Positions 20,388 through 63,288 of a stretch of DNA of 64,000 nucleotides are shown in pieces (positions within the stretch are counted from its first letter, which is position 1; each line of letters starts with the position of its first letter). The stretch is from an uncultured Acidobacteriota bacterium (GTDB taxonomy: Bacteria > Acidobacteriota > Terriglobia > Terriglobales > Acidobacteriaceae). The DNA lies in the NCBI GenBank assembly GCA_963837635.1, contig CAWINY010000006.1:725236-789235 (forward strand). The letters run 5' to 3'. Under the pieces are notes generated by a model that worked only from the letters and a program-made list of their open reading frames with translations, searched no databases and was not told the origin of the DNA. The position numbers and the translations under genes are program-made.

Positions 20388-20537
20388 TCGCTCCTTGGCC
20401 GTTGGCTAAAACCTGCCACAGAGACACAGAGGAACCCAAATTCAGTTTTTCTCTGTGGCTCTGTGCCTCTGTGGCAGGTGTTTCTGACGCCCTGATCCGT
20501 CTCAATCCGTGCAATCCGCGGTTAGCTTTTTGTTTTC

Positions 20538-21664: not shown

Positions 21665-22624
21665 CTACGCCGGCACTGGCACGCTCTCCACAATCTCGCG
21701 GAGCACATCCTCGGCCTGCCCGGATTTCTTTTTGGTTGAGGAGTAGCGGGCGTTGACCACCACACGATGGGCCAGCACCGGAATCGCGAGCGACTTGAAA
21801 TCCTCCGGCGTGGTAAAGGTGCGGCCGTGCACATAGGCCATGGCCTGGGCGGCGCGCTGCAGCATCAGCGAGCCGCGCGGCGAGACACCCAGCGAAAGGT
21901 AGTCCGATTCGCGGGTGCGGCGGACGATCTCCAGGGTGTAATCGAGCAGGGAATCCTCGACCCGCACCTGGCCCACCTCCTCCTGCAGCGTGCAAACCTC
22001 TTCCGCGTTGAGGATGGGCTTGACGTGATCGAGCTGCGGCGTGCCGCCCTCGGAGCGCAGGATCGCACGCTCGCTCGCCGGACCCGGATAGCCCATGTGC
22101 GCCCGGATCAGGAAGCGGTCCATCTGCGATTCCGGCAGCGGATAGGTGCCGTGGTGCTCGATCGGGTTCTGGGTCGCGACCACCAGGAAGGGTTTCGGCA
22201 GCGGATACGAGTAGCCGTCCATGGTGACTTGGGCGTCGTTCATCGCTTCCAGCAATGCGGACTGGGTCTTCGGCGTGGTGCGGTTGATCTCGTCGGCCAG
22301 CAGCACATTGGTGAACACCGGGCCGGGTTTGAATTCGAACTCCTGCTCGGCGGCGGCATAGAGGGTGATGCCCAGCACGTCGCTGGGCAGCATATCGCTG
22401 GTGAATTGAACCCGCTGGAAGTTGCAATCCAGCGCCCGGGCGATAGTGTGCGCCAGCGTGGTTTTGCCCACCCCAGGCACGCCTTCAAGCAGCAGGTGAC
22501 CGCGCGCCAGCAGCGCCACCAGCGCCAGACGGACCACCTCGTCCTGTCCGCGGATAACGCTGCGCAGGGTGGATTCAAGCTCGGCGATGCGCGCCGCGGC
22601 ACGTCCGGTGAGCGGAGCAACCAT
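21665..22624 (-). CDS. MoxR-like AAA+ ATPase
   Basis: 319 aa. Walker A 'GVPGVGKTTLA', 'LLADEINRTTPKTQSALLEAM', 'FLVVATQNPIE..GTYPLPESQLDRF'-type motifs. Confidence 0.85.
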   Translation of the reverse strand: MVAPLTGRAAARIAELESTLRSVIRGQDEVVRLALVALLARGHLLLEGVPGVGKTTLAHTIARALDCNFQRVQFTSDMLPSDVLGITLYAAAEQEFEFKPGPVFTNVLLADEINRTTPKTQSALLEAMNDAQVTMDGYSYPLPKPFLVVATQNPIEHHGTYPLPESQMDRFLIRAHMGYPGPASERAILRSEGGTPQLDHVKPILNAEEVCTLQEEVGQVRVEDSLLDYTLEIVRRTRESDYLSLGVSPRGSLMLQRAAQAMAYVHGRTFTTPEDFKSLAIPVLAHRVVVNARYSSTKKKSGQAEDVLREIVESVPVPA

Positions 22625-22803
22625 GCTCTGGATTTTATCAGCCGGTAGGCAAACCCTACCGTTACGAAGGGTTACGAAGGACGCGAGATAAGGCTTACTG
22701 CGGCTTCACGCGGATTGAAACCGAACCTCGTTCGGCAGGAATTGGAAGAACCGGCCGGAATTTCGAATTCTACGAAGGGTTACCCGGAAACAGTAGCGGG
22801 TAG

Positions 22804-22822
22804 TTGGTAGCGCTACCGGGAA
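22804..22822 (-). repeat. 19-bp direct repeat of the tRNA-Glu 3' end (putative distal att site)
   Basis: TTGGTAGCGCTACCGGGAA at 22804-22822 is identical to 30949-30967. That second copy is the CCA end, 3' acceptor strand and start of the T-arm of tRNA-Glu, in the same orientation. Confidence 0.6.
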
Positions 22823-23044
22823 ACAGCCCCGGACAGCCTGTAATATTGCGACAAATATAGGCAAAACGCCAGTGTTCGTTTCGCCCGACCCAGGGAAAAG
22901 CGGCGAATATTGTGGCGGCGGGCATCACGATATTTTCCAAGGCTGCGCTCAAGCGCAAAACTTTTCTCTTGCTGGTCGATGGCAACCCGGCATCCAACCG
23001 GCGTTTCCAACTTTCAACCCTTAGTAAGCTCCGAGGTTGGCCCT

Positions 23045-23905
23045 ATGCGCGTGCTCCGCCCCTTGTTTCTCTCGCTGTTGCTCAGTTTTCAGGCGCTCGC
23101 GGCGACTCCGGCCTTAGCACCGATCGTCGTCATCGCATTCGAAAATCATCCTTACTCGTCGGTGGTCGGCAGCTCGGCCATGCCGTACCTGAATAGCCTG
23201 ATCCAGGAGTATTCGCTGGCGGCCAACTTCTACGCCACAGCGCCGGGTTCGGTGCCGGACTATTTCATGATTACCACGGGAGAAAGGGTCGCGTGTTGCC
23301 CCTCCTATGCCGGACCCTACACAGGCAACAACCTGGTGCGCGTGCTGGGAAATGGCGGAAAAAGCTGGAAGGTGTACGCCCAGAGCCTCCCCTACGCGGG
23401 CTATCTTGGTTCCGGCTATTATCCCTATGTGAAGTACCACAATCCATTCGCCTACTTCAGCGACGTTGTGAACAACTCGACGCAAAAAGCGAAAATCGTG
23501 CCGCTCTCGCAGCTTTCTGCCGATCTTTCCACAGGCCAGCTGCCGATCTTCATGTACATCCTCCCGGACAATGTTCACAACGCACACAGTTGTCCGGGAG
23601 CGACGAACTGCACCGATGCCGACAAGCTGCGCGCCGCCGACCTGTTTTTGCAGGACTACGTTCCGGCGCTCTTGCACACCCCGGCATTCGAAAAGAGTGG
23701 TTTGCTGGTGATTTGGTGGGACGAGGGAAACTCCACCACGGAGCATACGGCTATCACGTTTGTCGGGCCGCTGGTCAGGAAGGGGTATAAGTCTTACACC
23801 TTCTATAAAGACCAAAACCTGCTGCGCACGATCATTGAAGGCCTCCGGCTGAATTCGTTCCCCGGCGTGTCGGTCACTGCGAGCGACATGAGTGACATCT
23901 TCTGA
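23045..23905 (+). CDS. Secreted phosphoesterase-family protein (acid phosphatase/PLC-like)
   Basis: Trimmed to the Met at 23045, which begins the signal peptide 'MRVLRPLFLSLLLSFQALAA'. 'IVVIAFENHPYS' and 'LLVIWWDEGN' phosphoesterase-family motifs. Confidence 0.7.
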   Translation: MRVLRPLFLSLLLSFQALAATPALAPIVVIAFENHPYSSVVGSSAMPYLNSLIQEYSLAANFYATAPGSVPDYFMITTGERVACCPSYAGPYTGNNLVRVLGNGGKSWKVYAQSLPYAGYLGSGYYPYVKYHNPFAYFSDVVNNSTQKAKIVPLSQLSADLSTGQLPIFMYILPDNVHNAHSCPGATNCTDADKLRAADLFLQDYVPALLHTPAFEKSGLLVIWWDEGNSTTEHTAITFVGPLVRKGYKSYTFYKDQNLLRTIIEGLRLNSFPGVSVTASDMSDIF

Positions 23906-24042
23906 GCCGATCTCCATTCGCCATTGCCAAAACGATGTTCCTGCCGGAGTGGGCCGCATCGCGGCTTCTTCGGTCATAACGGGCTCCTTCGGCGGACCAC
24001 AGGGATTACCATACTCCTGCTGGCAATGATCCTGGAGGCGAG

Positions 24043-24537
24043 ATGACGAAAAGCGGAATTACAATCGACATTCCCGGAATCGGGTTGCGGCACGTCCACA
24101 CGGTCTTGACCGATTACACAGGAACCCTGTCGCGGGGCGGTCGGCTGGATGTCGGCGTCAGAGAACACCTTTGCAAGCTCGCCCAAGTGGTGGACATCCA
24201 CGTAATCACGGCGGATACCTTTGGCATTGCCGAAGATGAACTGAGGGGTATTCCCGTCACATTCCACAGGCTAACTGGCGATCAGCAGGATGTTCAAAAG
24301 CAAGAACACGGGACGAGCGTTGGTCTTAGGCAGTGTGCCGTGCTGGGGAACGGGAACAATGATCGCTTGCTTCTAAAGGCAGCCAAGGACGAGGGCGGTC
24401 TTGCGATTGCGGTTGACAACGGGGAGGGCTGCGCGACCGATGCCCTTTTGAATTCCAACATCTTCATCGTCGGAGCCGCCAACGCGCTCACGCTGCTGCT
24501 TGAACCGAGGGGCTGCAATGCCACGCTGCGGTTTTGA
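24043..24537 (+). CDS. HAD-superfamily protein resembling soluble P-type-ATPase-like domain proteins (COG4087-like)
   Basis: Motif I 'VLTDYTGTL' (DxT), 'HVITADT', 'GNGNNDRLLLKAA'. Confidence 0.65.
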   Translation: MTKSGITIDIPGIGLRHVHTVLTDYTGTLSRGGRLDVGVREHLCKLAQVVDIHVITADTFGIAEDELRGIPVTFHRLTGDQQDVQKQEHGTSVGLRQCAVLGNGNNDRLLLKAAKDEGGLAIAVDNGEGCATDALLNSNIFIVGAANALTLLLEPRGCNATLRF

Positions 24538-24677
24538 TGGGCTTTCTCGGCCTGCCGATCGCGACAGTCGTCACCACACAAATGGAATCAGCGCCCCTCA
24601 GACTGCTAAGGCAACGGTGTACTTGTATTCCTTTTGTTTTCAGGATAGCTTTACCCACCTACAGATGGGAGAGGCGT

Positions 24678-25049
24678 ATGCTTGTCGCCACCAACAAACA
24701 ATCTTCGGGAGTCGTGCCTCTGCAATGCGCTGTGCTTTGTGTTGATTGCGAGTCAGTCAGCAATAGCCAATTGGACGTGTGCCCCGTCTGCGGCGGACAT
24801 TCGCTGCTCAGCATCGCACGAATACTCGGCGGCACTCTTTTCGCGGAGAAGGCTAAACCTGCCGTAGTGCTGTTCGACATGGAAATCTCCATCCAGTTGA
24901 AGCAAGTGGAGGGCAGCGATTTGACCACAACCGTTAAAGGCATTACCAACGCCATCCAGCCAAGCCTCAGCAGAGGTCGAGCTTCATTTCACGTCAATGT
25001 GGAACCTGCCGCAGAGGTCGATGCTCCTTACAAGTTGAAGGTCGCGTAG
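24678..25049 (+). CDS. Zinc-ribbon protein, paralog A (C-x2-C-x12-C-x2-CG-x-SLLS-x-A-x-ILGG)
   Basis: Track ORF trimmed to the ATG at 24678, preceded by GGGAGAGG. 'LQCAVLCVDCESVSNSQLDVCPVCGGHSLLSIARILGGTL' matches paralog B at 26802..27182. Confidence 0.5.
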   Translation: MLVATNKQSSGVVPLQCAVLCVDCESVSNSQLDVCPVCGGHSLLSIARILGGTLFAEKAKPAVVLFDMEISIQLKQVEGSDLTTTVKGITNAIQPSLSRGRASFHVNVEPAAEVDAPYKLKVA

Positions 25050-25192
25050 TCAGGCATAACATGAGCGCTCACGATGCTGGCGTGACCGCCCATGCGGCCA
25101 ACGAGTACATGCGTAAGCATTGCGATCCAATGCAGCCGAGTTCGGCACAGCACGGTCTCGCCCGAACTGAGATTTTCGTCGATGTAGCTCAT
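25028..25192 (-). CDS. Short ORF whose N-terminus resembles bPH_2/YdbT-type (DUF304) proteins, possibly a truncated remnant
   Basis: Not in the track (54 aa). An AGGAGG lies 6 nt upstream of the ATG. The 'MSYIDENLSSGETVLCRTRLHWIA' start is like DUF304 proteins, but the expected TM segments are missing. Confidence 0.35.
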   Translation of the reverse strand: MSYIDENLSSGETVLCRTRLHWIAMLTHVLVGRMGGHASIVSAHVMPDYATFNL

Positions 25193-25341
25193 GCCGGCCT
25201 CCTGAGAACACCAGTGCAGGCAATCCTAGAACTTACATCGCGACGAAAGCAATGAGCCGATCGGATGCGTCAACTGGATCAGCAGTGAGCCGCCCATGGG
25301 ACTGGATAGGAAATTGACGTTGATGCCATAATCCGTGTCCA

Positions 25342-25379
25342 GAAAAAATACGACCCACAGTGATTACCGCTGTGGGTCG
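25342..25379 (-). terminator. Rho-independent terminator
   Basis: Minus strand CGACCCACAG-cggtaatca-CTGTGGGTCG followed by TATTTTTTCT. Lies downstream of the 25437..25760 ORF. Confidence 0.65.
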
Positions 25380-25436
25380 CTTGGTAATGGGAGGGGATGT
25401 TGCTTTTGGTTGTTGGACGTGTGACGGATCGAAGCG

Positions 25437-25760
25437 TTAGCAGGACGATACTCGGGTCGGTTTGCTGCTGGTTGGGTTAAGTTTGCTTGTCCTCGTGCCC
25501 TTTTTTCGACCAGCAGCTTCGCGAGTTGATCGTGCGGTTCTATGGGCGTGCTCCCCGAAATCGTCCCCGGCCTTGGGGCTTCCCAACACGGCGTTGTCTG
25601 CTGGACGGACTCGAACTTCGGATGTGCCCTGCTGCATAGTATTAGTGTTGTTCATGGTATTAGTGCTGTTCATCACGTGTGCACCTGTCGGTATATCCAT
25701 TGATCCGGCAATCCACAAGAGAACCATACACACGACGAGCATGAATAAATATCGTTTCAT
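25437..25760 (-). CDS. Small secreted hypothetical protein (Asn/Thr-rich then basic)
   Basis: Signal-like 'MKRYLFMLVVCMVLLWIAGS'. Followed by a strong terminator. No recognisable family. Confidence 0.45.
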   Translation of the reverse strand: MKRYLFMLVVCMVLLWIAGSMDIPTGAHVMNSTNTMNNTNTMQQGTSEVRVRPADNAVLGSPKAGDDFGEHAHRTARSTREAAGRKKGTRTSKLNPTSSKPTRVSSC

Positions 25761-26580
25761 GATTAACCGCCTTTCTTCCATAAGCTCCTGGCTCCTGCGT
25801 CAGTCAACTGCGCATTCCACAGTCAGAGCTAGACCGGGATGCTGACGGGTATAGGGGTGACGAACTGTCGCCTCTGTGACGAGGAGCCGTTTTGATTCCC
25901 GGAGCGCTTCTCCATGGCATCCGGTAGCTCATCCAAGGTATGAGATTTGCTGTTAGCGCCGGTTTAGAATCGAGCCACTTAAGCCGGTATAGGTGTGGGT
26001 TGAGCTTGCGACACGATCGTCGGCACTCACCCGTTGGATGGCAAAGGTAATTATAAACTACAGTAGAGTGACTTACCAGCGTCCTCGCCAATAAGGGGCT
26101 TTCCCCGGTTCACTTCTCCGGCCTCCTCTGGCGAGAATGGCTCCGTTTTTCACCGGCAATTACAAATTTACTAACCTTCTGTTTCAGTGTGATGTTATCA
26201 GCGTTAATTTTCGATAACAAACGATTCCTGAGCGAGTTCCACGCCAAGCGTTCGCGCCAAGAGATTGCCGAGGCGAATGGGCTTGTTTGTGCTGGTTGAA
26301 CCACGGTAGTAAACCTGACCACGATGGCGGGGAACAAGTATCACGATGCCTCAACCGGCAGCAAGCACCGTAGCGCGATTCCCAAAAGAAACGACCTACA
26401 GTGGAGGCCACCGTGGGTCGCGTTTGAAGGAAGGCGGTATGTGTCCTAGCTGTCCCTCATAAACCGGCCCCGGTGGTGGCGGCGAAACGCAAAATCAAGA
26501 TCTAGCGCATTCGGAAAAATCAGGAAACCAACCAGGCAGTTGTCCCTGTTGCTGGGCGCACCAGGGGCGCGGGATCGATT

Positions 26581-26595
26581 GGGGGGGGGGTGGGG
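26581..26595. repeat. Homopolymer G10-T-G4 tract
   Basis: ggggggggggtgggg read directly, in a non-coding, AT-richer part of the island. Confidence 0.9.
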
Positions 26596-26801
26596 AAAAA
26601 CAGGAAAACCTCAATTTGGGAAGAACCGTAGGGGAACAGCCCGACTGTAACTGTGGGCTGTGATCGTTGCAGCAAGCGCCCGGTGTTACTTCCTGTAGTT
26701 AAGTAGATGCTGTCTTGCTGGTGGAAAGATGCACGTCCTTCGGGATTCCTCCGAGCAGAAGTGCTCCGGCTTTCGTTACCCGTCTCCAGCGCCATTCGCT
26801 T

Positions 26802-27182
26802 TCATCCTTGCAACCGGCCCCTGGATCGAATGCGGACGAGCCGCTTCCGCCGACTATGGTTGTGCTCGGGCGGCGGCATCACGATCAACGGTGGCAGGGC
26901 GAAAAGTGTTTGCTGCGCATCGTTGCCGATCACCTGAGTCCTGCGAGTCGGCAGGGCACCGCCCAGGATGCAGGCGAGACTTAGCAGCGAGCGGCTTCCG
27001 CAGATTCGGCAGGCATCATGCGGGCTGTCGCTGATCACTTCGCACCCGGCGCAATGAACGAGCGGCAACGAGTGATTACCGCGCGCATCGAAGCTATCGC
27101 GGGCGAAAGGCAAACCATCGCAAGGCGCATCTTCGAGACGTGGTACGCCGAGTGCCAAACCGTTGTCAGGGCAGCCGAGCAC
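26802..27182 (-). CDS. Zinc-ribbon protein, paralog B
   Basis: 'LVHCAGCEVISDSPHDACRICGSRSLLSLACILGGAL' aligns with paralog A. The true start is unclear. It overlaps a plus-strand ORF (27018..27374) that cannot be excluded. Confidence 0.4.
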   Translation of the reverse strand: MLGCPDNGLALGVPRLEDAPCDGLPFARDSFDARGNHSLPLVHCAGCEVISDSPHDACRICGSRSLLSLACILGGALPTRRTQVIGNDAQQTLFALPPLIVMPPPEHNHSRRKRLVRIRSRGRLQG

Positions 27183-27431
27183 GGGCTGTTTTGCACCTTG
27201 CTAGACGGCCTGAAGGCGAGCTTCTACGAGTTTCAGGACCGCACCGGCACCGGGGGAACTCTTGACCGGCCCTTTTCCTTTCTCGTTCAAGACCATTACC
27301 TCTCAAACCTCACCGCGGATGAGCACAGCGCGGAGTGGAACAGCGGAAGTCGCTGGTACAGCGGGCGTCGATGAGGCGCCCTTTTTTATCGTGCGCTTTC
27401 CCGCGCGTAAGTCAATCTGCGAGGTGAGTCA

Positions 27432-27779
27432 GTGAGGAAAAAAGGCGATCTGCCGTTGACCTCGGAGGAAATCAGCCGAGCGAAGACCTATGCCGCTATG
27501 GGTTATTCCTTCCGCGCGATCGGCCGCGAGTTGAAGCGGAGCGACCGTACCATCAAAGCACTTCTGTCGAAGCCAGCCATAGCCGCTGAGGTTTGCACTA
27601 AGAAGGCAGAATTGAGCGATATGTTCGAACGGCTCGCTATCCGTACCATCGAAGCGGTCAGTGCGGACGACATCAAGGACGCCTCTCTGTTGCAGAAAGC
27701 CACCACTGCGGGGATTGCCGTCGACAAGATGCGTTTGTTGCGCGGCGAGAGCACGAGCATATCGACGTTCACGCCCTGA
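27432..27779 (+). CDS. Small HTH-domain protein (resolvase/terminase-small-subunit-like HTH)
   Basis: 'LTSEEISRAKTYAAMGYSFRAIGRELKRSDRTIKALL' helix-turn-helix. GTG start preceded by GAGGTGAG. Confidence 0.5.
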   Translation: MRKKGDLPLTSEEISRAKTYAAMGYSFRAIGRELKRSDRTIKALLSKPAIAAEVCTKKAELSDMFERLAIRTIEAVSADDIKDASLLQKATTAGIAVDKMRLLRGESTSISTFTP

Positions 27780-27869
27780 TGGAGGTGGCCGACCTGATCA
27801 GGTCGCAAGATGACGACGAGGATCAGAGGCAACTACCCGCCCCACCCTGCCAGTAGCCGCTGCTTCGCC

Positions 27870-28545
27870 TTTTCGGCTAATGAAATGGGAGTTCCCCCGG
27901 CTCTGCCGGGGAGGCACGCGAAGTTTGACAGATACGGGAGTCCATCCAAGAAACTCCTGGCGTGAGCCGCGAAGCACACGCAAAGGAGAAACTGGATGGA
28001 CGAGTATGAAAGCTTAAGCCACTCGAAATGGGAGTGCAAATACCATGTGGTGTTTATCCCAAAGGGCCGGCGGAAAGCGTTGTATGGGGAGTTGCGGAAG
28101 TATTTGGGAGAGGTGTTCCGCAAACTGGCGGAGCAGAAGGAAAGCCGGATTGAGGAAGGGCATCTGCTGGCGGACCACGTGCACATGTTGATATCGATCC
28201 CGCCGAAGTACGCGGTGGCGCAGGTGGTTGGGTTTATGAAAGGGAAGAGTGCGATTCATCTGGCGCGAGTGTACGGAGGGCGGAAACAGAATTTTGTAGG
28301 GCAGAGTTTCTGGGCGCGGGGATACTTTGTGTCGACGGTCGGGCGGGACGAGACATCGATCCGAGAGTACATCCGCACGCAGGAGGAAGAGGACAAGCGC
28401 CTGGATCAGTTGAACATGTGGCGCTGAAGGGGCCACCTTCAGGTGGCCAAGAATGTCGGGGCCGCGTTAGCGACCCCGCTCAGCCGCTTTGAGCGGCTCA
28501 CATCCTAAAGCCCCCGGCTCTGCCGGGGGATATTTACTCCATCCG
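27870..28545 (+). mobile_element. IS200/IS605-family insertion sequence (IS200-like, tnpA only); ends approximate
   Basis: A Y1/HUH transposase gene is flanked by nearly identical subterminal hairpins CCCCGGC-tct-GCCGGGG at 27895-27911 and 28511-28529. Confidence 0.6.
27996..28427 (+). CDS. tnpA: IS200/IS605 family transposase TnpA (Y1 HUH)
   Basis: 143 aa. 'YHVVFIPKGRRK', HUH 'DHVHMLISIPP', 'GYFVSTVG...IREYIR'. Confidence 0.9.
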   Translation: MDEYESLSHSKWECKYHVVFIPKGRRKALYGELRKYLGEVFRKLAEQKESRIEEGHLLADHVHMLISIPPKYAVAQVVGFMKGKSAIHLARVYGGRKQNFVGQSFWARGYFVSTVGRDETSIREYIRTQEEEDKRLDQLNMWR

Positions 28546-28602
28546 CCCGCTTGCTTCCGACTCGTCTCGGGCGTACAGTGGGAACCGTTTTTCAGCCCTT
28601 AG

Positions 28603-29885
28603 GCACCGTAAATAAATAACGTTTACATCTACTATCCTGATCTGTTATTACGGTGGGCATGGACTCGGATGCCCAGCTCGGCCGGTACTTTGCTGGCATG
28701 TGGCCGCATCTGGACGAACACGCTCGGCGTTTGGTGGCTGCCAGCGAAGCTTTGGAACTGGGCTATGGCGGCATCTCGCGAGTCAGCCGCGCCTGCGGCC
28801 TATCGCGGGTCACGTTGACCAAGGGTATCGAGGAATTGAAAGCCGCGCCGCTGGCCCCGGGCCGGATTCGCCACGAGGGCGGCGGACGACACTCGTTGAC
28901 GTCCAGCGATCCCGGCATGGCGCCCGCCTTGGACAGCATGGTCGAACCCACGGCACGCGGCGACCCGCAGTCGCCCTTGCGCTGGACCTGCAAGAGCGCC
29001 CGCACGCTGGCGGCGGAACTAACAGCCCGGCACCACCCGGTCAGCCACACCAAAGTGACCCAACTCCTGCGAGAGAGTGGCTACAGCCTGCAGGGCAATC
29101 GCAAGACGGAGGAAGGGGATGACCATCCCGATCGTGACGCGCAGTTCCGTCATATCAATAGCGCCGTCAAACGCGCTTTGCGGGCAGGCGAGCCCGTCAT
29201 TTCCGTGGACACGAAGAAGAAAGAACTGATCGGTAACTACCAAAACCAGGGCCGCCAGTGGCGCCAAACCGGAACGGCGGATAAGGTCAACGGACATGAT
29301 TTTCCCGGTCCCGATGTACCCCGCGCCTATCCCTACGGAATCTACGACCTGGGGCGCAACGCGGGCTTCGTCAACGTGGGCACGGACCACGACACGGGGG
29401 CCTTCGCGGTGGCTTCGATTCGGGGCTGGTGGCGCGCCGACGGCCGGAACCTGTATCTGGGGGCACGGCGACTGCTGATCACCGCCGATGGCGGGGGTAG
29501 CAACGGCTGGCGGCTGCGACTGTGGAAATGGGAGTTACAGCGTCTGGCCGACCAGACCGGGCTGATACTGATGGTCTGCCATTTTCCGCCGGGCACGAGC
29601 AAATGGAATAAGGTGGAGCATCGGTTGTTTTCCTTCATTTCGTCCAACTGGCGCGGCGAGCCGCTACGCGATTATGAGACGGTGGTACGGCTGATCGCCG
29701 GAACGACGACGGCCAAGGGTTTGAAAGTGACCTGCCGCCTAGATCACCGCAAGTATCCCGTGGGGCGAAAGATCACGGATGAAGAGTTTGCCCATGTCAA
29801 CCTCAAGCCAGACAAATTCCATGGTGAGTGGAACTACACCATTCATCCAAGCAACTAGGTTGTAAATGTTATATATTTACGCCGC
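28603..29885 (+). mobile_element. ISAzo13-family insertion sequence, copy 1 (~1283 bp)
   Basis: Imperfect terminal IRs GCACCGTAAATAAATAACGTTTACA / TGTAAATGTTATATATTTACGCCGC. Flanked by the direct repeat (C)TTAG at 28598-28602 and 29886-29890. End positions are +/-1 bp. Confidence 0.85.
28653..29858 (+). CDS. ISAzo13 family DDE transposase
   Basis: 401 aa. 'ISVDTKKKELIGN', 'ITADGGGSNG.R..LWK', 'HFPPGTSKWNKVEHRLFS' motifs typical of ISAzo13-type transposases. Protein is identical to 61401..62606. Confidence 0.9.
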   Translation: MGMDSDAQLGRYFAGMWPHLDEHARRLVAASEALELGYGGISRVSRACGLSRVTLTKGIEELKAAPLAPGRIRHEGGGRHSLTSSDPGMAPALDSMVEPTARGDPQSPLRWTCKSARTLAAELTARHHPVSHTKVTQLLRESGYSLQGNRKTEEGDDHPDRDAQFRHINSAVKRALRAGEPVISVDTKKKELIGNYQNQGRQWRQTGTADKVNGHDFPGPDVPRAYPYGIYDLGRNAGFVNVGTDHDTGAFAVASIRGWWRADGRNLYLGARRLLITADGGGSNGWRLRLWKWELQRLADQTGLILMVCHFPPGTSKWNKVEHRLFSFISSNWRGEPLRDYETVVRLIAGTTTAKGLKVTCRLDHRKYPVGRKITDEEFAHVNLKPDKFHGEWNYTIHPSN

Positions 29886-29914
29886 CTTAGCTTCTCTCCC
29901 CCAGGGGGTCACGT

Positions 29915-30504
29915 ATGCGCTACCTGTGCGCTCTCGTCTTTGCGTTGCTGTCGTTCGTTCCTGCAAGAGCCGATGTGCTGTATACGTACACTGGGAATCC
30001 GTGGACTAGCTGCATCAATGGCTATGGCAATTGCGATCCATCCTGGCCCCCCTGACGGCCAGTTTCACCTACTCCGAACGGCTGCCCGCCGACTTCACGG
30101 CTACTTTTTACTATTCGAATTTCGGACCCAGCCTGTACGGCGTGTTTGATCCCCAACGCACCAACATCACGCCCGTATCTGTTACCGTCGGTGACGGGAC
30201 GCTCTACACAGATCCTTTTCCCTATGGAACCTTTGTGAATGGCACGCTCGTTACTGGAGACAGCGGCCAGATTGTAGACTGGCAGTTTTATTGGTTCGGA
30301 TGGTACTGTGGGGACATCGGCACGATTAATTCTACTCCGCAGTCCGATTCGTATTTGCGACATCAGCCAGCGTCGCCAAATTTCAGCAACGCCAACGATC
30401 CAGGCTCCTGGACCGTTACCGAGGTTCCAGAGCCATCGACATTGGCCCTTCTCGGCAGTGGATTGTTGTTGGCGTTTCATCGTGTGCGCCGTCGCTATCG
30501 GTAA
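29915..30504 (+). pseudogene. PEP-CTERM sorting-domain protein, frameshifted at a C6 tract (or sequencing error / phase-variable)
   Basis: The signal-peptide ORF from ATG 29915, 'MRYLCALVFALLSFVPARA|DVLYTYTGNPW...DPSWPP', stops at 30053. The rest of the protein is in the -1 frame (30031..30504) and ends 'VPEPSTLALLGSGLLLAFHRVRRRYR'. One extra C in the run 30047-30052 would join the two frames. Confidence 0.6.
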
Positions 30505-30835
30505 CTTCCGGCACGCCGGGTGCCTGCGCCGAAGCCTGCGGGAGTGCTGCTGTCGCCCGCGTTGGTCTGGTTAAGCCTACGGGGGCCTTCCCTACGTTGC
30601 CCCCCGTCCTGGAAGCGCCTCCCCCCTTAAAACGCGATTGCGGGGCGTTGTGGGGCGATTCTGGAAACACTCAGGCCGGCGCGGACCTTATCGCGATGTC
30701 CTGCAAGTCCACGCTTAGACTTGCGGCCGTTCTGGCCGCGCTTTTGCCAAAAAAATCGCGGAGCTACACGATACGGCATCGAGGGCGGGGACGGTCGAAT
30801 GGGGGCATAGGGGCTGGGCAAAAGTAGGACCCGGC

Positions 30836-30864
30836 CTGGTGTACCACCTGGTGTACCACGGTGT
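30836..30864. repeat. Tandem 12-mer CTGGTGTACCAC x2.4
   Basis: Read directly. About 90-110 bp from the tRNA-Glu 3' end. Confidence 0.8.
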
Positions 30865-30906
30865 CCGCTTTCTGCCGCTAGTGAGTGTCAGAACCTTTTT
30901 CAGGCA

Positions 30907-30933
30907 CAAAGAAAACCCGCTGATTTAGCGGGT
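30907..30933 (-). terminator. Rho-independent terminator after tRNA-Glu
   Basis: Minus strand ACCCGC-taaatca-GCGGGT followed by TTTCTTTG. Confidence 0.55.
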
Positions 30934-30949
30934 CTTAGCGGATATTGAT

Positions 30950-31024
30950 TGGTAGCGCTACCGGGAATCGAACCCGGGTTTGAAGATTGAGAATCTTCCG
31001 TCCTAACCCCTAGACGATAGCGCC
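30950..31024 (-). tRNA. tRNA-Glu (anticodon CUC), CCA encoded
   Basis: Hand-folded cloverleaf. Acceptor GGCGCTA/TAGCGCT, D-arm GTCT-AGGGGTTA-GGAC, anticodon arm GAAGA-TTCTCAA-TCTTC, 4-nt variable loop, T-arm CCGGG-TTCGATT-CCCGG, A73-CCA. Confidence 0.9.
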
Positions 31025-31270
31025 CCTGCTGGTGAATTGATTATAACAAAGCGCTAGTTTGTGCGGCTCTCGCGCTTCGGGTTGGGGTGCGGGATGTCGT
31101 TGCTCAAAATGGTCGAAGAAGCCAGGAAATGAACCAAGCTGTTGCCGTCGGATCGGCTGTGCCGGCGGGCCTGCAAGACCCACCACGGATTCAAGCGGAT
31201 TGAGACGGATCAGGAAACGACTGGAGAAAGCAGATCGGAGAAGGTAGAGCCGGGTTCCTTCTGATTTTTC

Positions 31271-32365
31271 TCAATCCGTTGTTGCTTTATATTCTCCCGC
31301 TGCTACCGTGGCCGGGGTTGGTCCTGCGAAATACCGGCGCTGGAAATAGAACGACACGTTGACCAGCGCGATCATCACCGGGACCTCGACCAGCGGGCCG
31401 ATCACCGCCGCGAAGGCCGCTCCGGAGTTAATGCCGAACACGGCCACGGCCACCGCAATCGCCAGCTCGAAGTTGTTGCTGGCGGCGGTGAACGCGAGGG
31501 TGGCAGTCTTGGAATAATCCGCGCCCAGTTTCCGGCCCATATAGAACGACACCAGGAACATGACCACGAAGTAAATCAACAGCGGCACGGCGATCCGCGC
31601 CACGTCGAGCGGAAGCCGCACCATGGTTTGGCCCTTTAGGGAAAACATCACCACGATGGTGAACAGCAGGGCAATTAGCGTCAGCGGACCCACCCGCGGA
31701 ACAAACTTGTTTTCATACCACTGCCGTCCTTTAACCGGGATCAGCACGGTGCGGGTAACAAACCCAGCGAGGAAGGGAATGCCGAGGTATATGAAAACGC
31801 TTTTCGCGATTTGGGCGATAGAGATATTGACCACGACTCCGTGTAGCCCGATCCATTCCGGCAGCACCGTGATGAATACCCAGGCATAGACCGAGTAAAA
31901 GAACACCTGAAACAGGGAATTGAAGGCGACCAGACCGGCCGCGTACTGGGTGTCGCCCTTGGCCAGTTCGTTCCAGACGATGACCATCGCAATGCAACGC
32001 GCCAGGCCGATCAGAATAAGCCCCGCCATGTATTCCGGATATCCGCGCAGGAAAATGATGGCGAGCACGAACATCAGGATTGGTCCCACGATCCAGTTCT
32101 GCACCAGGGATAATCCCAGAACCCGCTTGTTGCGAAAGACTTCATGCAGCTCTTCGTAGCGCACCTTGGTGAAGGGCGGGTACATCATCAGGATCAAGCC
32201 GGCGGCAATGGGAATCGAAGTCGTGCCCACGCTAAAGCGATTGAGGAAGGGCACGATCCCCGGCGCCAGCCACCCCCCCACGACGCCGAGAACCATCGCT
32301 CCGAAAATCCATGCCGTCAGATAACGATCGAGAAAACGCAGCCTGCGCGTGCTTGCTCCGCTCAT
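31271..32365 (-). CDS. acr3: Arsenite efflux permease ACR3
   Basis: 364 aa with about 10 TM segments. '[10 protein letters not shown]', '[10 protein letters not shown]', '[13 protein letters not shown]' ACR3 signatures. Confidence 0.9.
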
Positions 32366-32373
32366 TGGCTGGC

Positions 32374-33222
32374 CTACTTTCTACCGTGCAGCTTGATCGA
32401 GGCCACGGCTTCGGCTGCCTCGCGTACCAGCTTGTCCGGGTTTTTCAGAGATGAAGCCGAGATCGTGGACCCGCAGCATGACGTTCCCCCGCCGCAGCTG
32501 TCTTTACCCTGAGCCTGAGCCTGAGCCTGAGGCGCGAGCATCTTCACCAGATCGGGACCGTAAGCGATCCGCGGGATCGAGAGATCGCGCAGGCCGGCGG
32601 CGAGCGCCGTGCTGAGATAGTCGGTCAGCAGACTGGCCCCGGAAACACACCCCACGTAGGCGCTTATGCTTCTTGTGAGCGCTTCCGGCAGCGGCTTGAG
32701 CAGCACGATGTCACTCACCGCAAAGCGGCCGCCCGGCTTCAGCACGCGGGCGATTTCCCGGAAGACCGCGGGCTTGTCCGCCGAAAGATTGATCACGCAA
32801 TTGCTGATGACGTAATCGACAGTTGCGCTTTCGACCGGCAGATCTTCGATGAATCCCTTGCGGAATTCTACGTTCGCCACCCCGCGTTTTTCCGCGTTCT
32901 GCCGCGCCAGGGCAAGCATGTCATCGGTCATATCCACGCCGATCACGCGTCCCGCGGCTCCGACCCGGTGCCAGGCGAGAAACGCATCGAAGCCCGCGCC
33001 CGCGCCGAGATCCACCACCGTCATGCCGGGAGCGAGTTCGGTGAGCGCCAGGGGATTGCCGCAACCCAGGCCGAGGTTAGCGTCGCCGGCCAGCGCCAAG
33101 TCTTCGTCGCTGTAGCCGATCGAGCGCGCCACTTCTTCGGTCGGCGCTCCGCAGGCCGACGCCTCGCCGCGCGCCACCGCTCCATAGTGCTCTTCCACTG
33201 CGTTGGTAATTTCGTGCTTCAT
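32374..33222 (-). CDS. arsM: Arsenite S-adenosylmethionine methyltransferase
   Basis: SAM motif '[13 protein letters not shown]'. Conserved Cys positions in 'LGLGCGNP', 'ISNCVINL', 'YVGCVSGA'. Cys-rich tail '[10 protein letters not shown]'. Confidence 0.85.
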
Positions 33223-33839
33223 TCGGCTTCCTCGATTCTGGGGCGGACGCCCCGTCCGAGCCCGATTCTTGCTTGAGTGGGAATTTCCCCGGGGTTCTTG
33301 GTGCGTAGTTTAGTTGCTCGCCGCTCCTCGCGGGCGATGGGATGGCCAAGCGAGGAACGCTCATCGGGCAGCTTGGCGATGGGCGCATTCAAAGCACAGC
33401 AGTTCGCCGATTCCATGGCGTGGTTCAGCAGACTCAGGGCTTTGAGGATCTGGGCGCGTTGTCGTTCGGGCAGGGAACTAACGATGCGCTTGGTGCGCTG
33501 GCGCATGAGGTCATCGAGTTGCTTGCGCGTGCGGCGCCCCTCGGGTGTAATCCGCACCATGGCGGCGCGCCCATCGCTCTGCGCCCCACGGACGCGCTCC
33601 ACCAGGCCGCGCGTTTCGAGCTTTTCCAGCACGCGGGTCATGGCGCTCGGCGTAATCCTGGAGCTGGCTGCCAGATCGCAGATGCGCGCCCCCTCTTGCG
33701 CTACCAGGGTGCGCAGGATGGCGCATTGGCGCTGGCTCAGTCCTTCGCAGCAGACCTCGTCCGGGCCGATTTGCCCGAGGATGCGGGCCAGTCGCTCCAG
33801 TTCATTCCACCAGCGCAGGGTATCGGAATCGGATTTCAC
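33219..33839 (-). CDS. MarR-family transcriptional regulator with two vicinal Cys pairs (putative As(III)-responsive regulator)
   Basis: Winged HTH 'LSQRQCAILRTLVAQEGARICDLAASSRITPSAMTRVLEKLETRGLVERV'. 'EVCCEG' and 'ANCCAL' pairs. Its stop overlaps the arsM ATG (ATGA). Confidence 0.75.
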   Translation of the reverse strand: MKSDSDTLRWWNELERLARILGQIGPDEVCCEGLSQRQCAILRTLVAQEGARICDLAASSRITPSAMTRVLEKLETRGLVERVRGAQSDGRAAMVRITPEGRRTRKQLDDLMRQRTKRIVSSLPERQRAQILKALSLLNHAMESANCCALNAPIAKLPDERSSLGHPIAREERRATKLRTKNPGEIPTQARIGLGRGVRPRIEEAE

Positions 33840-61313: not shown

Positions 61314-61350
61314 TCACGGCTCCATTCGCTTCAGCGCCACGCGAGCTAAG
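61314..61350 (-). pseudogene. Displaced 3' end (last ~11 codons + TGA) of the Sel1-repeat gene split by ISAzo13 copy 2
   Basis: Removing the IS and one target-duplication copy joins ...AEAHGFAL to ARVALKRMEP* in frame. Confidence 0.55.
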
Positions 61351-62633
61351 GAACCGTAAATAAATAACGTTTACATCTACTATCCTGATCTGTTATTACG
61401 GTGGGCATGGACTCGGATGCCCAGCTCGGCCGGTACTTTGCTGGCATGTGGCCGCATCTGGACGAACACGCTCGGCGTTTGGTGGCTGCCAGCGAAGCTT
61501 TGGAACTGGGCTATGGCGGCATCTCGCGAGTCAGCCGCGCCTGCGGCCTATCGCGGGTCACGTTGACCAAGGGTATCGAGGAATTGAAAGCCGCGCCGTT
61601 GGCCCCGGGCCGGATTCGCCACGAGGGCGGCGGACGACACTCGTTGACGTCCAGCGATCCCGGCATGGCGCCCGCCTTGGACAGCATGGTCGAACCCACG
61701 GCACGCGGCGACCCGCAGTCGCCCTTGCGCTGGACCTGCAAGAGCGCCCGCACGCTGGCGGCGGAACTAACAGCCCGGCACCACCCGGTCAGCCACACCA
61801 AAGTGACCCAACTCCTGCGAGAGAGTGGCTACAGCCTGCAGGGCAATCGCAAGACGGAGGAAGGGGATGACCATCCCGATCGTGACGCGCAGTTCCGTCA
61901 TATCAATAGCGCCGTCAAACGCGCTTTGCGGGCAGGCGAGCCCGTCATTTCCGTGGACACGAAGAAGAAAGAACTGATCGGTAACTACCAAAACCAGGGC
62001 CGCCAGTGGCGCCAAACCGGAACGGCGGATAAGGTCAACGGACATGATTTTCCCGGTCCCGATGTACCCCGCGCCTATCCCTACGGAATCTACGACCTGG
62101 GGCGCAACGCGGGCTTCGTCAACGTGGGCACGGACCACGACACGGGGGCCTTCGCGGTGGCTTCGATTCGGGGCTGGTGGCGCGCCGACGGCCGGAACCT
62201 GTATCTGGGGGCACGGCGACTGCTGATCACCGCCGATGGCGGGGGTAGCAACGGCTGGCGGCTGCGACTGTGGAAATGGGAGTTACAGCGTCTGGCCGAC
62301 CAGACCGGGCTGATACTGATGGTCTGCCATTTTCCGCCGGGCACGAGCAAATGGAATAAGGTGGAGCATCGGTTGTTTTCCTTCATTTCGTCCAACTGGC
62401 GCGGCGAGCCGCTACGCGATTATGAGACGGTGGTACGGCTGATCGCCGGAACGACGACGGCCAAGGGTTTGAAAGTGACCTGCCGCCTAGATCACCGCAA
62501 GTATCCCGTGGGGCGAAAGATCACGGATGAAGAGTTTGCCCATGTCAACCTCAAGCCAGACAAATTCCATGGTGAGTGGAACTACACCATTCATCCAAGC
62601 AACTAGGTTGTAAACGTTATATATTTACGCCGC
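61351..62633 (+). mobile_element. ISAzo13-family insertion sequence, copy 2 (~1283 bp)
   Basis: Same length and orientation as copy 1. I found only 3 nucleotide differences (positions equivalent to 28604, ~28850, ~29869). Flanked by (C)TAAG at 61346-61350 and 62634-62638. Confidence 0.85.
61401..62606 (+). CDS. ISAzo13 family DDE transposase
   Basis: 401-aa protein identical to 28653..29858. Confidence 0.9.
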   Translation: MGMDSDAQLGRYFAGMWPHLDEHARRLVAASEALELGYGGISRVSRACGLSRVTLTKGIEELKAAPLAPGRIRHEGGGRHSLTSSDPGMAPALDSMVEPTARGDPQSPLRWTCKSARTLAAELTARHHPVSHTKVTQLLRESGYSLQGNRKTEEGDDHPDRDAQFRHINSAVKRALRAGEPVISVDTKKKELIGNYQNQGRQWRQTGTADKVNGHDFPGPDVPRAYPYGIYDLGRNAGFVNVGTDHDTGAFAVASIRGWWRADGRNLYLGARRLLITADGGGSNGWRLRLWKWELQRLADQTGLILMVCHFPPGTSKWNKVEHRLFSFISSNWRGEPLRDYETVVRLIAGTTTAKGLKVTCRLDHRKYPVGRKITDEEFAHVNLKPDKFHGEWNYTIHPSN

Positions 62634-63288
62634 CTAAGGCAAACCCGTGCGCTTCGGCCTTGCGATACCAATCGACGGCCTGCGCGTTGTTCAGCGCCAC
62701 TCCCTGGCCCGCCGCGTAGAAATACCCGACCTTGTATTCGGCTTCCGGTCGCTGCTGCTCGGCAGCTTGCAGATAGTATCGGAATGCGGCGGAGTAGTCC
62801 TGGCCCACGCCTCGGCCCTCCTCATACATTTGGCCAAGTTGGAGCGCCGCTTGGGTGTGGCCCTGGCTGGCTGCTCGCTGCAACCACTTGGCGGCCTGCG
62901 CGCCATCCTTCTTGACTCCGCGACCCGACTCATACATAACGCCGAGCCGGTACTCGGCGTCGCGGTGGCCTTGCGCGGCGGCAAGCTTGTGCCACTTGAT
63001 GGCCGTGGCGGGATCCTGATTGCTCAATCCGACGTCGTAGATAACCCCCAAGCGGTACTGCGCGTCGGCGTAGCCTTGGTCGGCGGCTTTCTGGAACCAC
63101 TCCCGGGCTTTGTCCATGTCGCGCGGCAATCCTTGCCCAAAGGCATACCTCATCCCCACCTTAACCTGAGCTGCGGGATCGCCCGCTTTGGCCTGCTGCA
63201 GCTCCGTGGCGAGGCCACCTTGGCAGAAGGAGAAGGCAACGCTAGCAGTCAAAAAGACAACGATGCCCAGAATCGTTCTCATCTTCAT
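62617..63288 (-). CDS. Sel1-repeat (SLR/TPR-like) secreted protein, C-terminus replaced by IS-encoded residues
   Basis: Signal peptide 'MKMRTILGIVVFLTASVAFS'. About six repeats of 'A..W..KAA.QG...A...LG.MY..G.GV..D...A'. The last 5 codons and the stop lie inside the IS right end. Confidence 0.75.
   Translation of the reverse strand: MKMRTILGIVVFLTASVAFSFCQGGLATELQQAKAGDPAAQVKVGMRYAFGQGLPRDMDKAREWFQKAADQGYADAQYRLGVIYDVGLSNQDPATAIKWHKLAAAQGHRDAEYRLGVMYESGRGVKKDGAQAAKWLQRAASQGHTQAALQLGQMYEEGRGVGQDYSAAFRYYLQAAEQQRPEAEYKVGYFYAAGQGVALNNAQAVDWYRKAEAHGFALGGVNI

What the first reader, a model, noticed from the sequence alone, without database searches (positions are those of the whole stretch)
22804..31024. 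Degenerate ~8 kb island inserted at tRNA-Glu(CUC), delimited by a 19-bp direct repeat of the tRNA 3' end
TTGGTAGCGCTACCGGGAA occurs at 30949-30967, which is the CCA end, 3' acceptor strand and start of the T-arm of the minus-strand tRNA-Glu. It occurs again in the same orientation at 22804-22822. That second position is where the displaced original tRNA 3' end is expected after site-specific integration into a tRNA gene. A 19-mer recurring by chance in 64 kb is very unlikely. The enclosed DNA differs from the flanks. It holds IS200, ISAzo13, a frameshifted PEP-CTERM gene, truncated gene remnants, an AT-richer stretch with no convincing ORF (about 25800-26800) containing a G10 tract, and orphan small genes. 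No integrase or excisionase is recognisable, so the element appears fossilised. A perfect tandem 12-mer (CTGGTGTACCAC x2, 30836-30859) lies about 100 bp from the tRNA and could be a leftover arm-type recombinase site.
Basis: partly seen in the sequence, partly recalled or inferred. Interest (0 to 1): 0.7.

Follow-up and report, generated by a model that had tools for sequence, protein, structure and literature searches.

The report
Fossil integrated element at tRNA-Glu gene
About 8 kb of foreign DNA sits at the 3' end of a tRNA-Glu gene in a soil acidobacterium; it is the decayed, integrase-less remnant of mobile elements that commonly insert at this tRNA, so it is a real but ordinary genomic island.

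Summary
The 19-mer TTGGTAGCGCTACCGGGAA occurs exactly twice, in direct orientation. One copy is the 3' end of tRNA-Glu(CUC) (30950-31024, minus strand). The other lies 8.1 kb downstream of the tRNA, at 22804-22822.

The enclosed DNA is a compositional outlier. It holds IS200, ISAzo13, a frameshifted PEP-CTERM gene and orphan ORFs. No recombinase was found in any frame.

No close relative with an empty site could be found. A different comparison settled the interpretation. This stretch matches a conserved module found downstream of tRNA-Glu(CUC) in more than 120 soil metagenome contigs (nhmmer E=1e-36).

In 11 of those contigs the module is followed, 2-6 kb on, by a closely related tyrosine integrase. 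In six of them, read to the far end, a P arm with the same GGTACAC pair, a 47-nt tRNA fragment and unrelated host DNA come next. The module is therefore the P' arm of a family of small integrative elements.

The window keeps only that arm and a shorter, T-loop-type 19-nt fragment. The integrase, the P arm and the 47-nt copy are gone. It is probably a composite or truncated fossil. This is a new member of a known kind, of low to moderate interest.

The parts
30950..31024 (-). Intact tRNA-Glu(CUC), the integration target. Its 3' part is the att core.
   Evidence: ARAGORN; Rfam RF00005, 63.6 bits. Identical or near-identical tRNA in Terriglobales genome and metagenome loci.
30949..30967 (-). tRNA-proximal copy of the 19-bp direct repeat: last 2 nt of the T-loop through CCA plus 1 nt.
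   Evidence: Exact match.
30827..30948 (-). P' arm ('module') of a family of tRNA-Glu(CUC) integrative elements. It now provides the 3' flank of the tRNA.
   Evidence: An nhmmer profile built from 71 other loci hits 30962-30827 with E=1.1e-36. The same module lies next to the tRNA in more than 120 metagenome contigs.
30913..30936 (-). Terminator-like hairpin (AGACCCGCU AAAUC AGCGGGUUU followed by UCUUUG), the most conserved part of the module. It is the likely terminator of the tRNA gene.
   Evidence: Fold -14.4 kcal/mol, z = -2.56; column conservation 80-99%. The simple terminator scan did not list it.
30836..30859 (-). Inferred arm-type integrase binding sites.
   Evidence: Only such pair in the window. 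The second repeat is about 90% conserved although the search pattern did not require it. The same pair lies in the P arm beside the integrase in 9 of 11 family members.
29915..30504 (+). Frameshifted PEP-CTERM gene: signal peptide in one frame, body and PEP-CTERM anchor in another.
   Evidence: PF07589, E=2.4e-6; six-frame translation.
28602..29886 (+). ISAzo13-family insertion sequence, a later simple insertion with a 3-4 bp target duplication (TTAG).
   Evidence: PF07592, E=1.5e-135. A 99.8% identical second copy lies at about 61350-62635 with its own duplication TAAG.
27880..28535 (+). IS200-type element (Y1 transposase 27996-28427) with the hairpin CCCCCGGCTCTGCCGGGG at both ends.
   Evidence: PF01797, E=1.6e-34; 18-mer at 27894-27911 and 28511-28528.
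27432..27779 (+). Small HTH_38 DNA-binding ORF, an orphan.
   Evidence: PF13936, E=5e-7; weak PHROG DNA-binding hit.
23045..25049 (+). Cargo-like genes: a secreted phosphoesterase-family protein (23045-23905) and two ORFs without family hits (24043-24537 and 24534-25049).
   Evidence: PF04185, E=6.6e-18. The closest homologue (76% identity) sits in a different context with no tRNA nearby.
22816..22832 (-). T-arm mimic at the inner edge of the distal repeat: CCGGG GCUGUUU CCCGG. The stem is kept, the loop differs from the tRNA, and there is no tRNA similarity beyond it.
   Evidence: Sequence; fold -15.4 kcal/mol, z = -2.0. The 5' part of the 47-nt fragment is absent from the window apart from the tRNA itself.
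22804..22822 (-). Distal copy of the 19-bp repeat. Inferred to be the displaced original 3' end of the tRNA (attR-type remnant, T-loop boundary) and the outer limit of the inserted DNA.
   Evidence: Exact match in direct orientation. It is followed by non-module DNA (only profile positions 1-26, E=0.008). The same geometry is seen in six live elements.
21665..22624 (-). MoxR-type AAA ATPase, the first gene outside the island on the distal side.
   Evidence: PF07726, E=4e-63. Homology to the nearest relative L081 covers 21670-22660 only.

Best explanation
The 8.1 kb between 22823 and 30948 is the fossil of site-specific integration at the 3' end of tRNA-Glu(CUC) in a Terriglobales (Acidobacteriota) chromosome.

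What the data show:
- The tRNA is intact, and a 19-nt copy of its 3' end lies 8.1 kb downstream in direct orientation.
- The ~120 bp next to the tRNA belongs to a conserved module that flanks this tRNA in many soil acidobacteria.
- In intact elements the module is followed by cargo, then a tyrosine integrase on the tRNA strand, a P arm, a 47-nt tRNA fragment, and finally unrelated host DNA.
- The GGTACAC pair occurs in both the module and the P arm.

What I infer:
- The module is the P' arm of these elements. On integration it rebuilds the tRNA 3' end and brings its own terminator and arm-type integrase sites.
- The 19-mer is the displaced original tRNA end and marks the outer edge of the DNA added at this site.
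- The integrase, the P arm and the 47-nt core copy of the module-bearing element have been lost, so the island cannot excise on its own.
- IS200 and ISAzo13 inserted later.
- The proximal arm is of the 47-nt (anticodon-loop) type and the distal fragment is of the T-loop type. The island is therefore most likely a composite of at least two successive integrations with internal deletion. Less likely, it is one element whose distal end was truncated.
For: - The repeat is exact, correctly oriented and non-random.
- The interval is a compositional outlier.
- The module profile hits the tRNA flank with E=1e-36.
- More than 120 metagenome contigs carry a tRNA-Glu 3' end followed by the module.
- Six contigs show tRNA + module ... 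integrase ... 47-nt fragment + diverse non-module DNA. Two more show tandem forms.
- In 11 loci a family integrase (68-93% identical to one another) lies 2-6 kb downstream of the module. One locus (L111) keeps only a 102-aa integrase remnant.
- The GGTACAC pair is present in the P arms of 9 of 11 family members. It is absent from the P arm of an unrelated phage integrase that uses the same core.
- DNA beyond the distal fragments differs between contigs, while the module is conserved.
- Genes after the module show no synteny: 131 Pfam families among 144 ORFs.
- Cargo of intact elements includes Xis-like HTH_17 and Prim-Pol/PriCT_1 proteins.
- ISAzo13 is a clean insertion with a target duplication and a twin copy elsewhere in the window.
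- The principle that a tDNA and its displaced fragment mark island ends, and the T-stem and anticodon crossover classes, are established (PMC4383910; bioRxiv 10.1101/2020.11.02.365908).
Against: - No empty-site relative was found. The source contig itself could not be retrieved, and the nearest relative shares only MoxR.
- No integrase, excisionase or remnant is present.
- The distal fragment is 19 nt, not the 47 nt of the family whose P' arm is present. No P arm or second GGTACAC pair exists in the window.
- The island's ORFs share no homology with the cargo of family members.
- DNA beyond the distal fragment has no terminator-like structure, although the native tRNA flank would be expected to have one.
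- Five Terriglobales genomes have tRNA-Glu(CUC) 6.5-10 kb from MoxR in the opposite relative orientation. Rearrangements near this locus therefore cannot be excluded.
- At least one other perfect 19-mer pair exists in the window, a REP-like word. Perfect 19-mers are thus not unique to att sites here.
Confidence: 0.7

Rival explanations
1. This is a single element of the T-loop integration class. One integration produced both ends, the 19-bp repeat is its true core, and only the integrase gene was later lost. On this view its P' arm merely resembles that of the 47-nt family.
For: The 19-mer starts in the T-loop, a canonical crossover sublocation (PMC4383910; bioRxiv 10.1101/2020.11.02.365908). 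The inner flank keeps a T-stem mimic. One metagenome contig (L138) has a 25-nt identical short-fragment junction.
Against: In every intact element seen, the module pairs with a 47-nt fragment and a P arm carrying GGTACAC. No T-loop-class element with this module and its own integrase was found. The exact variant is absent from viral contigs.
Confidence: 0.18
2. The module is native chromosomal sequence downstream of tRNA-Glu(CUC), conserved because it is the tRNA terminator plus a host protein-binding site. On this view the 19-mer is an orphan scar, and the 8 kb is simply a variable chromosomal region.
For: About two thirds of the contigs show an intact tRNA plus module with no integrase in view. 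Module subtype tracks tRNA subtype. Genes after the module are mostly ordinary cellular functions.
Against: Six elements have the module on the tRNA side and unrelated DNA beyond the distal fragment. That is the opposite of what a native flank would give. The same GGTACAC pair sits beside the integrase gene inside the elements. Genome L018 has the identical tRNA without the module.
Confidence: 0.07
3. The second 19-mer is unrelated to integration. It could be a chance match, a dispersed repeat word, or the last remnant of a decayed duplicate tRNA gene.
For: Another perfect 19-mer pair, REP-like, exists in the same window. No recombinase is present.
Against: Zero matches are expected by chance. 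The word is the tRNA 3' end, is in the orientation that integration predicts, and lies at a distance typical of the family (3.3-8.8 kb). The interval is compositionally foreign. Apart from L211, which is the same DNA as the window, the other 214 fetched loci carry the word only in tRNA-Glu genes or their att-type fragments and in one phage ORF, L082, that looks like a chance match.
Confidence: 0.05

Closest known systems
tRNA-gene-integrated genomic islands as defined by Islander (tDNA plus displaced tDNA fragment, tyrosine integrase)
   Same: An intact tRNA gene at one end and a 3' fragment in direct orientation at the other. The fragment boundary is at a canonical sublocation (T-loop). Composition is foreign, and accretion at the same tRNA is seen in relatives (PMC4383910).
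   Different: There is no integrase gene, so it would fail Islander's integrase filter. The two ends appear to derive from different att classes.
Lambda-type attP organisation with arm-type integrase binding sites on the P and P' arms (established knowledge of lambda Int)
   Same: Short direct repeats (GGTACAC, 12-bp period) lie on both sides of the core. They are about 55-75 bp upstream and about 90 bp downstream of it in intact family members. The integrases have an N-terminal SAM-like domain plus a catalytic domain.
   Different: Binding has not been tested. The window retains only the P' set.
CIMEs (cis-mobilizable elements): att-flanked, integrase-less remnants of integrative elements, described in Streptococcus thermophilus (from my own knowledge, not checked here)
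   Same: An integrase-less remnant flanked by att-derived repeats at a tRNA-type hotspot where related elements accrete in tandem.
   Different: The distal end lacks the P arm and the full core. Mobilisation in trans by a family integrase is therefore unlikely, and it is untested.
P4-like and other small integrative satellites or mobilizable elements (integrase + Xis-like HTH + Prim-Pol primase)
   Same: Intact relatives of the element that left the P' arm are 3.3-8.8 kb. They carry an integrase, HTH_17 proteins and, in some cases, Prim-Pol/PriCT_1 or DnaB-like genes.
   Different: None of these genes is present in the window, and no helper-phage relationship is known.

Membership tests
tRNA-integrated genomic island (Islander definition) | Intact target tRNA gene at one end | tested here: met
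   tRNA-Glu(CUC) at 30950-31024.
tRNA-integrated genomic island (Islander definition) | Displaced 3' tRNA fragment in direct orientation on the 3' side of the tRNA | tested here: met
   Exact 19-nt copy at 22804-22822, same strand, 8.1 kb downstream of the tRNA.
tRNA-integrated genomic island (Islander definition) | Fragment starts at a canonical crossover sublocation (T-loop/T-stem or anticodon loop) | tested here: met
   Identity starts within the T-loop, and a T-stem mimic is retained. Classes as described in PMC4383910.
tRNA-integrated genomic island (Islander definition) | Tyrosine integrase gene inside the island | tested here: not met
   Six-frame Pfam scan at E<=1 and tblastn with 13 integrases found nothing in 22.6-31.0 kb.
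tRNA-integrated genomic island (Islander definition) | Empty site in a related genome | not testable with these tools
   The best relatives have 77-85% identical MoxR and no synteny. The source genome was not retrievable.
   nhmmer E=1.1e-36 over profile positions 1-135.
   Absent. A phosphoesterase gene on the opposite strand occupies that position.
   No second pair and no second copy of the 5' part of the 47-nt fragment in the window. The distal fragment is 19 nt.
ISAzo13 family insertion sequence (secondary insertion) | DDE_Tnp_ISAZ013 transposase, terminal inverted repeats, target duplication, multiple copies | tested here: met
   PF07592, E=1.5e-135. Inverted repeats and 3-4 bp duplications at both copies. 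The second copy is 99.8% identical.
IS200/IS605 family (secondary insertion) | Y1 transposase with subterminal hairpins | tested here: met
   PF01797, E=1.6e-34. The same 18-nt palindromic hairpin flanks the gene on both sides.

The most novel reading that the evidence does not exclude
The element-borne P' arm may have replaced the native 3' flank of tRNA-Glu(CUC) across much of Terriglobia and be kept by selection. On this reading it serves as the tRNA's terminator and as a permanent docking platform with arm-type sites. Integrase-less remnants such as this one would then persist, and could be rearranged or mobilised in trans by family integrases encoded elsewhere in the genome or by incoming elements.
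Probability: 0.12. Interest if true: 0.5.

Novelty: new member of a known kind. Interest (0 to 1): 0.3.

Why it matters
For this genome, the result marks 22.8-31.0 kb as acquired, decaying DNA rather than core chromosome. It also explains the odd small ORFs and pseudogenes there.

More broadly, the comparison defined a common family of small tyrosine-integrase elements that target tRNA-Glu(CUC) in soil Acidobacteria. The attP architecture of this family can be read directly from sequence: a 47-nt core with GGTACAC arm-type pairs on both arms. That could help with mapping islands in acidobacterial MAGs, where contigs often break at this tRNA. It also offers a candidate integrase/att pair for genetic tools in a phylum that is hard to manipulate.

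Nothing here challenges current understanding of how tRNA-targeted integration works.

Tried and rejected
1. Empty-site comparison.
- The exact-protein look-up of the window's MoxR, and of its 100% identical database entry, failed.
- The genome scan with MoxR gave relatives of at most 77% identity, sharing nothing but MoxR and, in five cases, a tRNA-Glu in the opposite orientation.
- The 85% relative L081 shares only MoxR.
- The Logan contig L211 is the same DNA as the window.

2. Integrase remnants.
- Six-frame Pfam scans, tblastn with 13 integrases and PHROGs on the orphan ORFs were all negative.
- A weak tblastn hit at about 15.2-15.4 kb, outside the island, has no Pfam support.

3. Viral contig L082 carries the 18-mer ending at the same base. 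I rejected it as a probable chance match inside a phage ORF.

4. The terminator word alone in viral contigs hit unrelated AT-rich phages.

5. I first leaned towards the module being native host sequence, with L084 as an attR carrying host flank. I dropped this after finding elements with the module on the tRNA side and the GGTACAC pair in their P arms.

6. Cargo homology between the window's island and family elements: none.

7. A search for a remnant of a second module beyond the distal 19-mer found only about 10 nt of weak similarity.

8. The T-loop variant GTTTCCCGGTAGCGCTACCA is absent from viral contigs.

9. Rfam finds no known RNA family in the module.

Full report
**Observation.** ARAGORN finds tRNA-Glu(CUC) at 30950-31024 on the minus strand, and Rfam agrees. 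The 19-mer TTGGTAGCGCTACCGGGAA occurs at 30949-30967 and 22804-22822 and nowhere else in the window, even with three mismatches. No shuffle produced a match. Read on the tRNA strand, it is the last two T-loop bases, the 3' T-stem strand, the 3' acceptor strand, the discriminator, CCA and one more base. The second copy is in direct orientation on the 3' side of the tRNA, which is where a displaced tRNA end is expected after integration.
- IS200-type and ISAzo13 transposases.
- A PEP-CTERM gene split between two frames.
- A G10 tract at 26581-26590.
- The perfect tandem 12-mer at 30836-30859.

**Content and composition.** The left flank is a MoxR-type ATPase (21665-22624, minus strand). The right flank is an ACR3 arsenite carrier, an ArsM-like methyltransferase and a MarR regulator. 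Inside the interval are:
- A secreted phosphoesterase-family protein.
- Several ORFs without family hits.
- A small HTH_38 protein.
- IS200.
- ISAzo13.
- The PEP-CTERM pseudogene.

A six-frame Pfam scan of 22625-31000 at E<=1 found no recombinase on either strand. tblastn with 13 integrases from the relevant families found nothing in the interval at E<=10. The interval has GC 0.572, against 0.611 +/- 0.008 for equal-sized windows elsewhere; none of those is as low. Its tetranucleotide distance is 0.19, against a maximum of 0.119 elsewhere. ISAzo13 is a clean later insertion. It has a 3-4 bp target duplication and a 99.8% identical twin at about 61.35-62.64 kb. It therefore did not delete an integrase.

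**Source and the failed empty-site test.** MoxR relatives place the window in Terriglobales (Acidobacteriota). The source contig is in the protein database (100% identical proteins on a 1.05-Mb contig). It could not be retrieved, and the only retrievable identical DNA is a 3.2-kb piece of the same sequence. The nearest relative (85% identical MoxR, L081) shares DNA homology only across MoxR (21670-22660), and both neighbouring regions differ. Five more distant genomes have tRNA-Glu(CUC) 6.5-10 kb from MoxR, but in the opposite relative orientation.

**The region next to the tRNA is a conserved module.** A viral contig (L084) carries phage tail genes, a tyrosine integrase and a 47-nt 3' fragment of tRNA-Glu. 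After the fragment comes a sequence clearly homologous to window 30827-30948. It has the same terminator hairpin and the same pair of GGTACAC repeats. I then scanned metagenomes for the tRNA 3' end followed, 80-110 nt later, by GTGGTACAC. Of the 81 loci examined, 53 have an intact tRNA plus the module. Most of the others have tRNA 3' fragments plus the module; four are merely cut by a contig end and one (L152) is a false hit. In all of them, similarity collapses right after the second GGTACAC. A profile built without the window hits 30962-30827 with E=1.1e-36. The hairpin folds at -14.4 kcal/mol and is followed by a U-run.

**Is the module host sequence or element sequence?** Several observations fit either answer, so I looked for loci with two copies of the tRNA end. 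Six contigs (L092, L097, L127, L129, L159, L164) read as follows: intact tRNA, module, 3.3-8.8 kb, then a 47-nt fragment followed by DNA that is not the module and differs in every contig. Two more (L105, L168) have a second module after the fragment, as expected for tandem elements. In seven of these eight, a 380-440-aa ORF on the tRNA strand ends about 137 nt before the distal CCA. Each of these ORFs is a tyrosine integrase (PF00589 plus PF13102). The eighth contig has the integrase slightly further in. These integrases are 68-93% identical to one another. Related copies lie 2-6 kb beyond the module in 11 loci, and one locus retains only a 102-aa remnant.

The stretch between the integrase stop codon and the 47-nt core contains the same GGTACAC-N5-GGTAYAC pair in 9 of 11 members. 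Two members have a GTGGCAC variant. The unrelated phage integrase of L084/L109 has neither. Repeats of one short word on both sides of the core, tied to one integrase family, are the signature of arm-type sites in attP.

The module is therefore the P' arm of a family of small integrative elements. It rebuilds the tRNA and supplies a terminator on integration. Cargo in intact members includes Xis-like HTH_17 proteins and Prim-Pol/PriCT_1 primases. Genes beyond the module in the wider set show no synteny: 131 families among 144 ORFs.

**What the window is.** The window has this family's geometry: tRNA, module, 8.1 kb, tRNA fragment, non-module DNA. It lacks the integrase, the P arm, any second GGTACAC pair and the 5' part of the 47-nt fragment. 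Its distal fragment is 19 nt and begins in the T-loop. The inner flank keeps a T-stem mimic (CCGGG-7 nt-CCCGG) but shows no other tRNA similarity. Published surveys recognise T-stem and anticodon-centred crossover classes that are used by different integrase subfamilies (PMC4383910; bioRxiv 10.1101/2020.11.02.365908). The proximal arm comes from an anticodon-type (47-nt) element and the distal scar looks T-loop-type. Tandem accretion is evident at this tRNA in relatives. The most economical reading is therefore a composite: an older integration left the 19-nt scar, a later family member left its P' arm, and deletions removed the recombination genes and the internal junction. The alternative is a single element with a truncated distal end. 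I rate it less likely (0.18) but it is not excluded. One metagenome contig (L138) shares a 25-nt identical short-fragment junction. No element carrying that variant was found.

**Caveats.**
- There is no empty site.
- The island ORFs have no homologues in the cargo of family members.
- The closest phosphoesterase homologue (76% identity) lies in an unrelated context. This fits cargo status, but also fits the generally poor synteny of this clade.
- The DNA beyond the distal fragment has no terminator-like fold.
- The window contains another perfect 19-mer pair of REP type, so perfect 19-mers alone are not proof of an att site here.

**Verdict.** It is an ordinary kind of feature. The by-product, a widespread and sequence-defined element family at tRNA-Glu(CUC) in soil Acidobacteria, is a modestly useful new member of a known kind.

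Noticed in passing
L092, L097, L105, L127, L129, L148, L149, L155, L159, L164, L168 (metagenome loci): A family of small (3.3-8.8 kb) integrative elements at tRNA-Glu(CUC). The layout is: module, cargo, integrase (68-93% mutual identity), P arm with a GGTACAC pair, 47-nt tRNA fragment. Cargo includes HTH_17, Prim-Pol/PriCT_1 and DnaB-like genes.
   Followed up: partly
L084 / L109 (viral and metagenome contigs): A prophage with GTA-like tail genes and an unrelated integrase (about 25% identity to the small-element family). It abuts a 47-nt tRNA-Glu fragment followed by the module. This looks like a phage integrated in tandem in front of an older element remnant. L131 and L165 show the same downstream DNA behind an intact tRNA.
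   Followed up: partly
window 31196-31214 and 20491-20509 (inverted): A second perfect 19-mer pair, CGGATTGAGACGGATCAGG, each preceded by another CGGATT unit. It lies in intergenic DNA and looks like a REP-type dispersed repeat. GCGGATTGA also occurs at 22710 and 12335.
   Followed up: partly
window 22662-22680 and 22770-22787: Three copies of TACGAAGG(G) (TACGAAGGGTTAC twice) lie between MoxR and the distal 19-mer. They start exactly where homology to the nearest relative ends (22660). Their function is unknown.
   Followed up: no
window about 61350-62635: A second ISAzo13 copy, 99.8% identical to the one in the island, with its own target duplication (TAAG). This indicates recent transposition within this genome.
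   Followed up: partly
L015, L018, L022, L025, L026 (Terriglobales genomes): tRNA-Glu(CUC) lies 6.5-10 kb upstream of the MoxR orthologue, on the opposite strand relative to the window's arrangement. L018 has the identical tRNA with no module after it.
   Followed up: partly
L096, L105, L108, L110, L116, L140, L141, L149, L159, L161, L164, L166, L169: Many metagenome contigs begin within or a few dozen bases upstream of the tRNA-Glu gene. This suggests that assemblies often break at this tRNA because of repeated fragments or population heterogeneity.
   Followed up: no
L111, 194-499 nt after the tRNA CCA end: A 102-aa remnant of a family integrase (87% identical to that of L092) lies directly after the module. 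This is an independent example of decay of such an element.
   Followed up: no
L138 905-925: A tandem TGAACTACAT x2 lies about 140 nt upstream of a short (about 19-21 nt) tRNA-Glu fragment that is followed by the module. These may be arm-type sites of a different, T-loop-class element.
   Followed up: no
L026 2313-2376: A stretch similar to the 5' half of the window's tRNA-Glu plus its upstream 28 nt lies about 200 nt from the annotated tRNA-Glu of that locus.
   Followed up: no
window 31271-33839: The tRNA's 5' side is an arsenic-type cluster (ACR3 carrier, ArsM-like methyltransferase, MarR-family regulator). GC dips at 31.0-32.5 kb and 34-35.5 kb, so this flank may also be accessory DNA.
   Followed up: no
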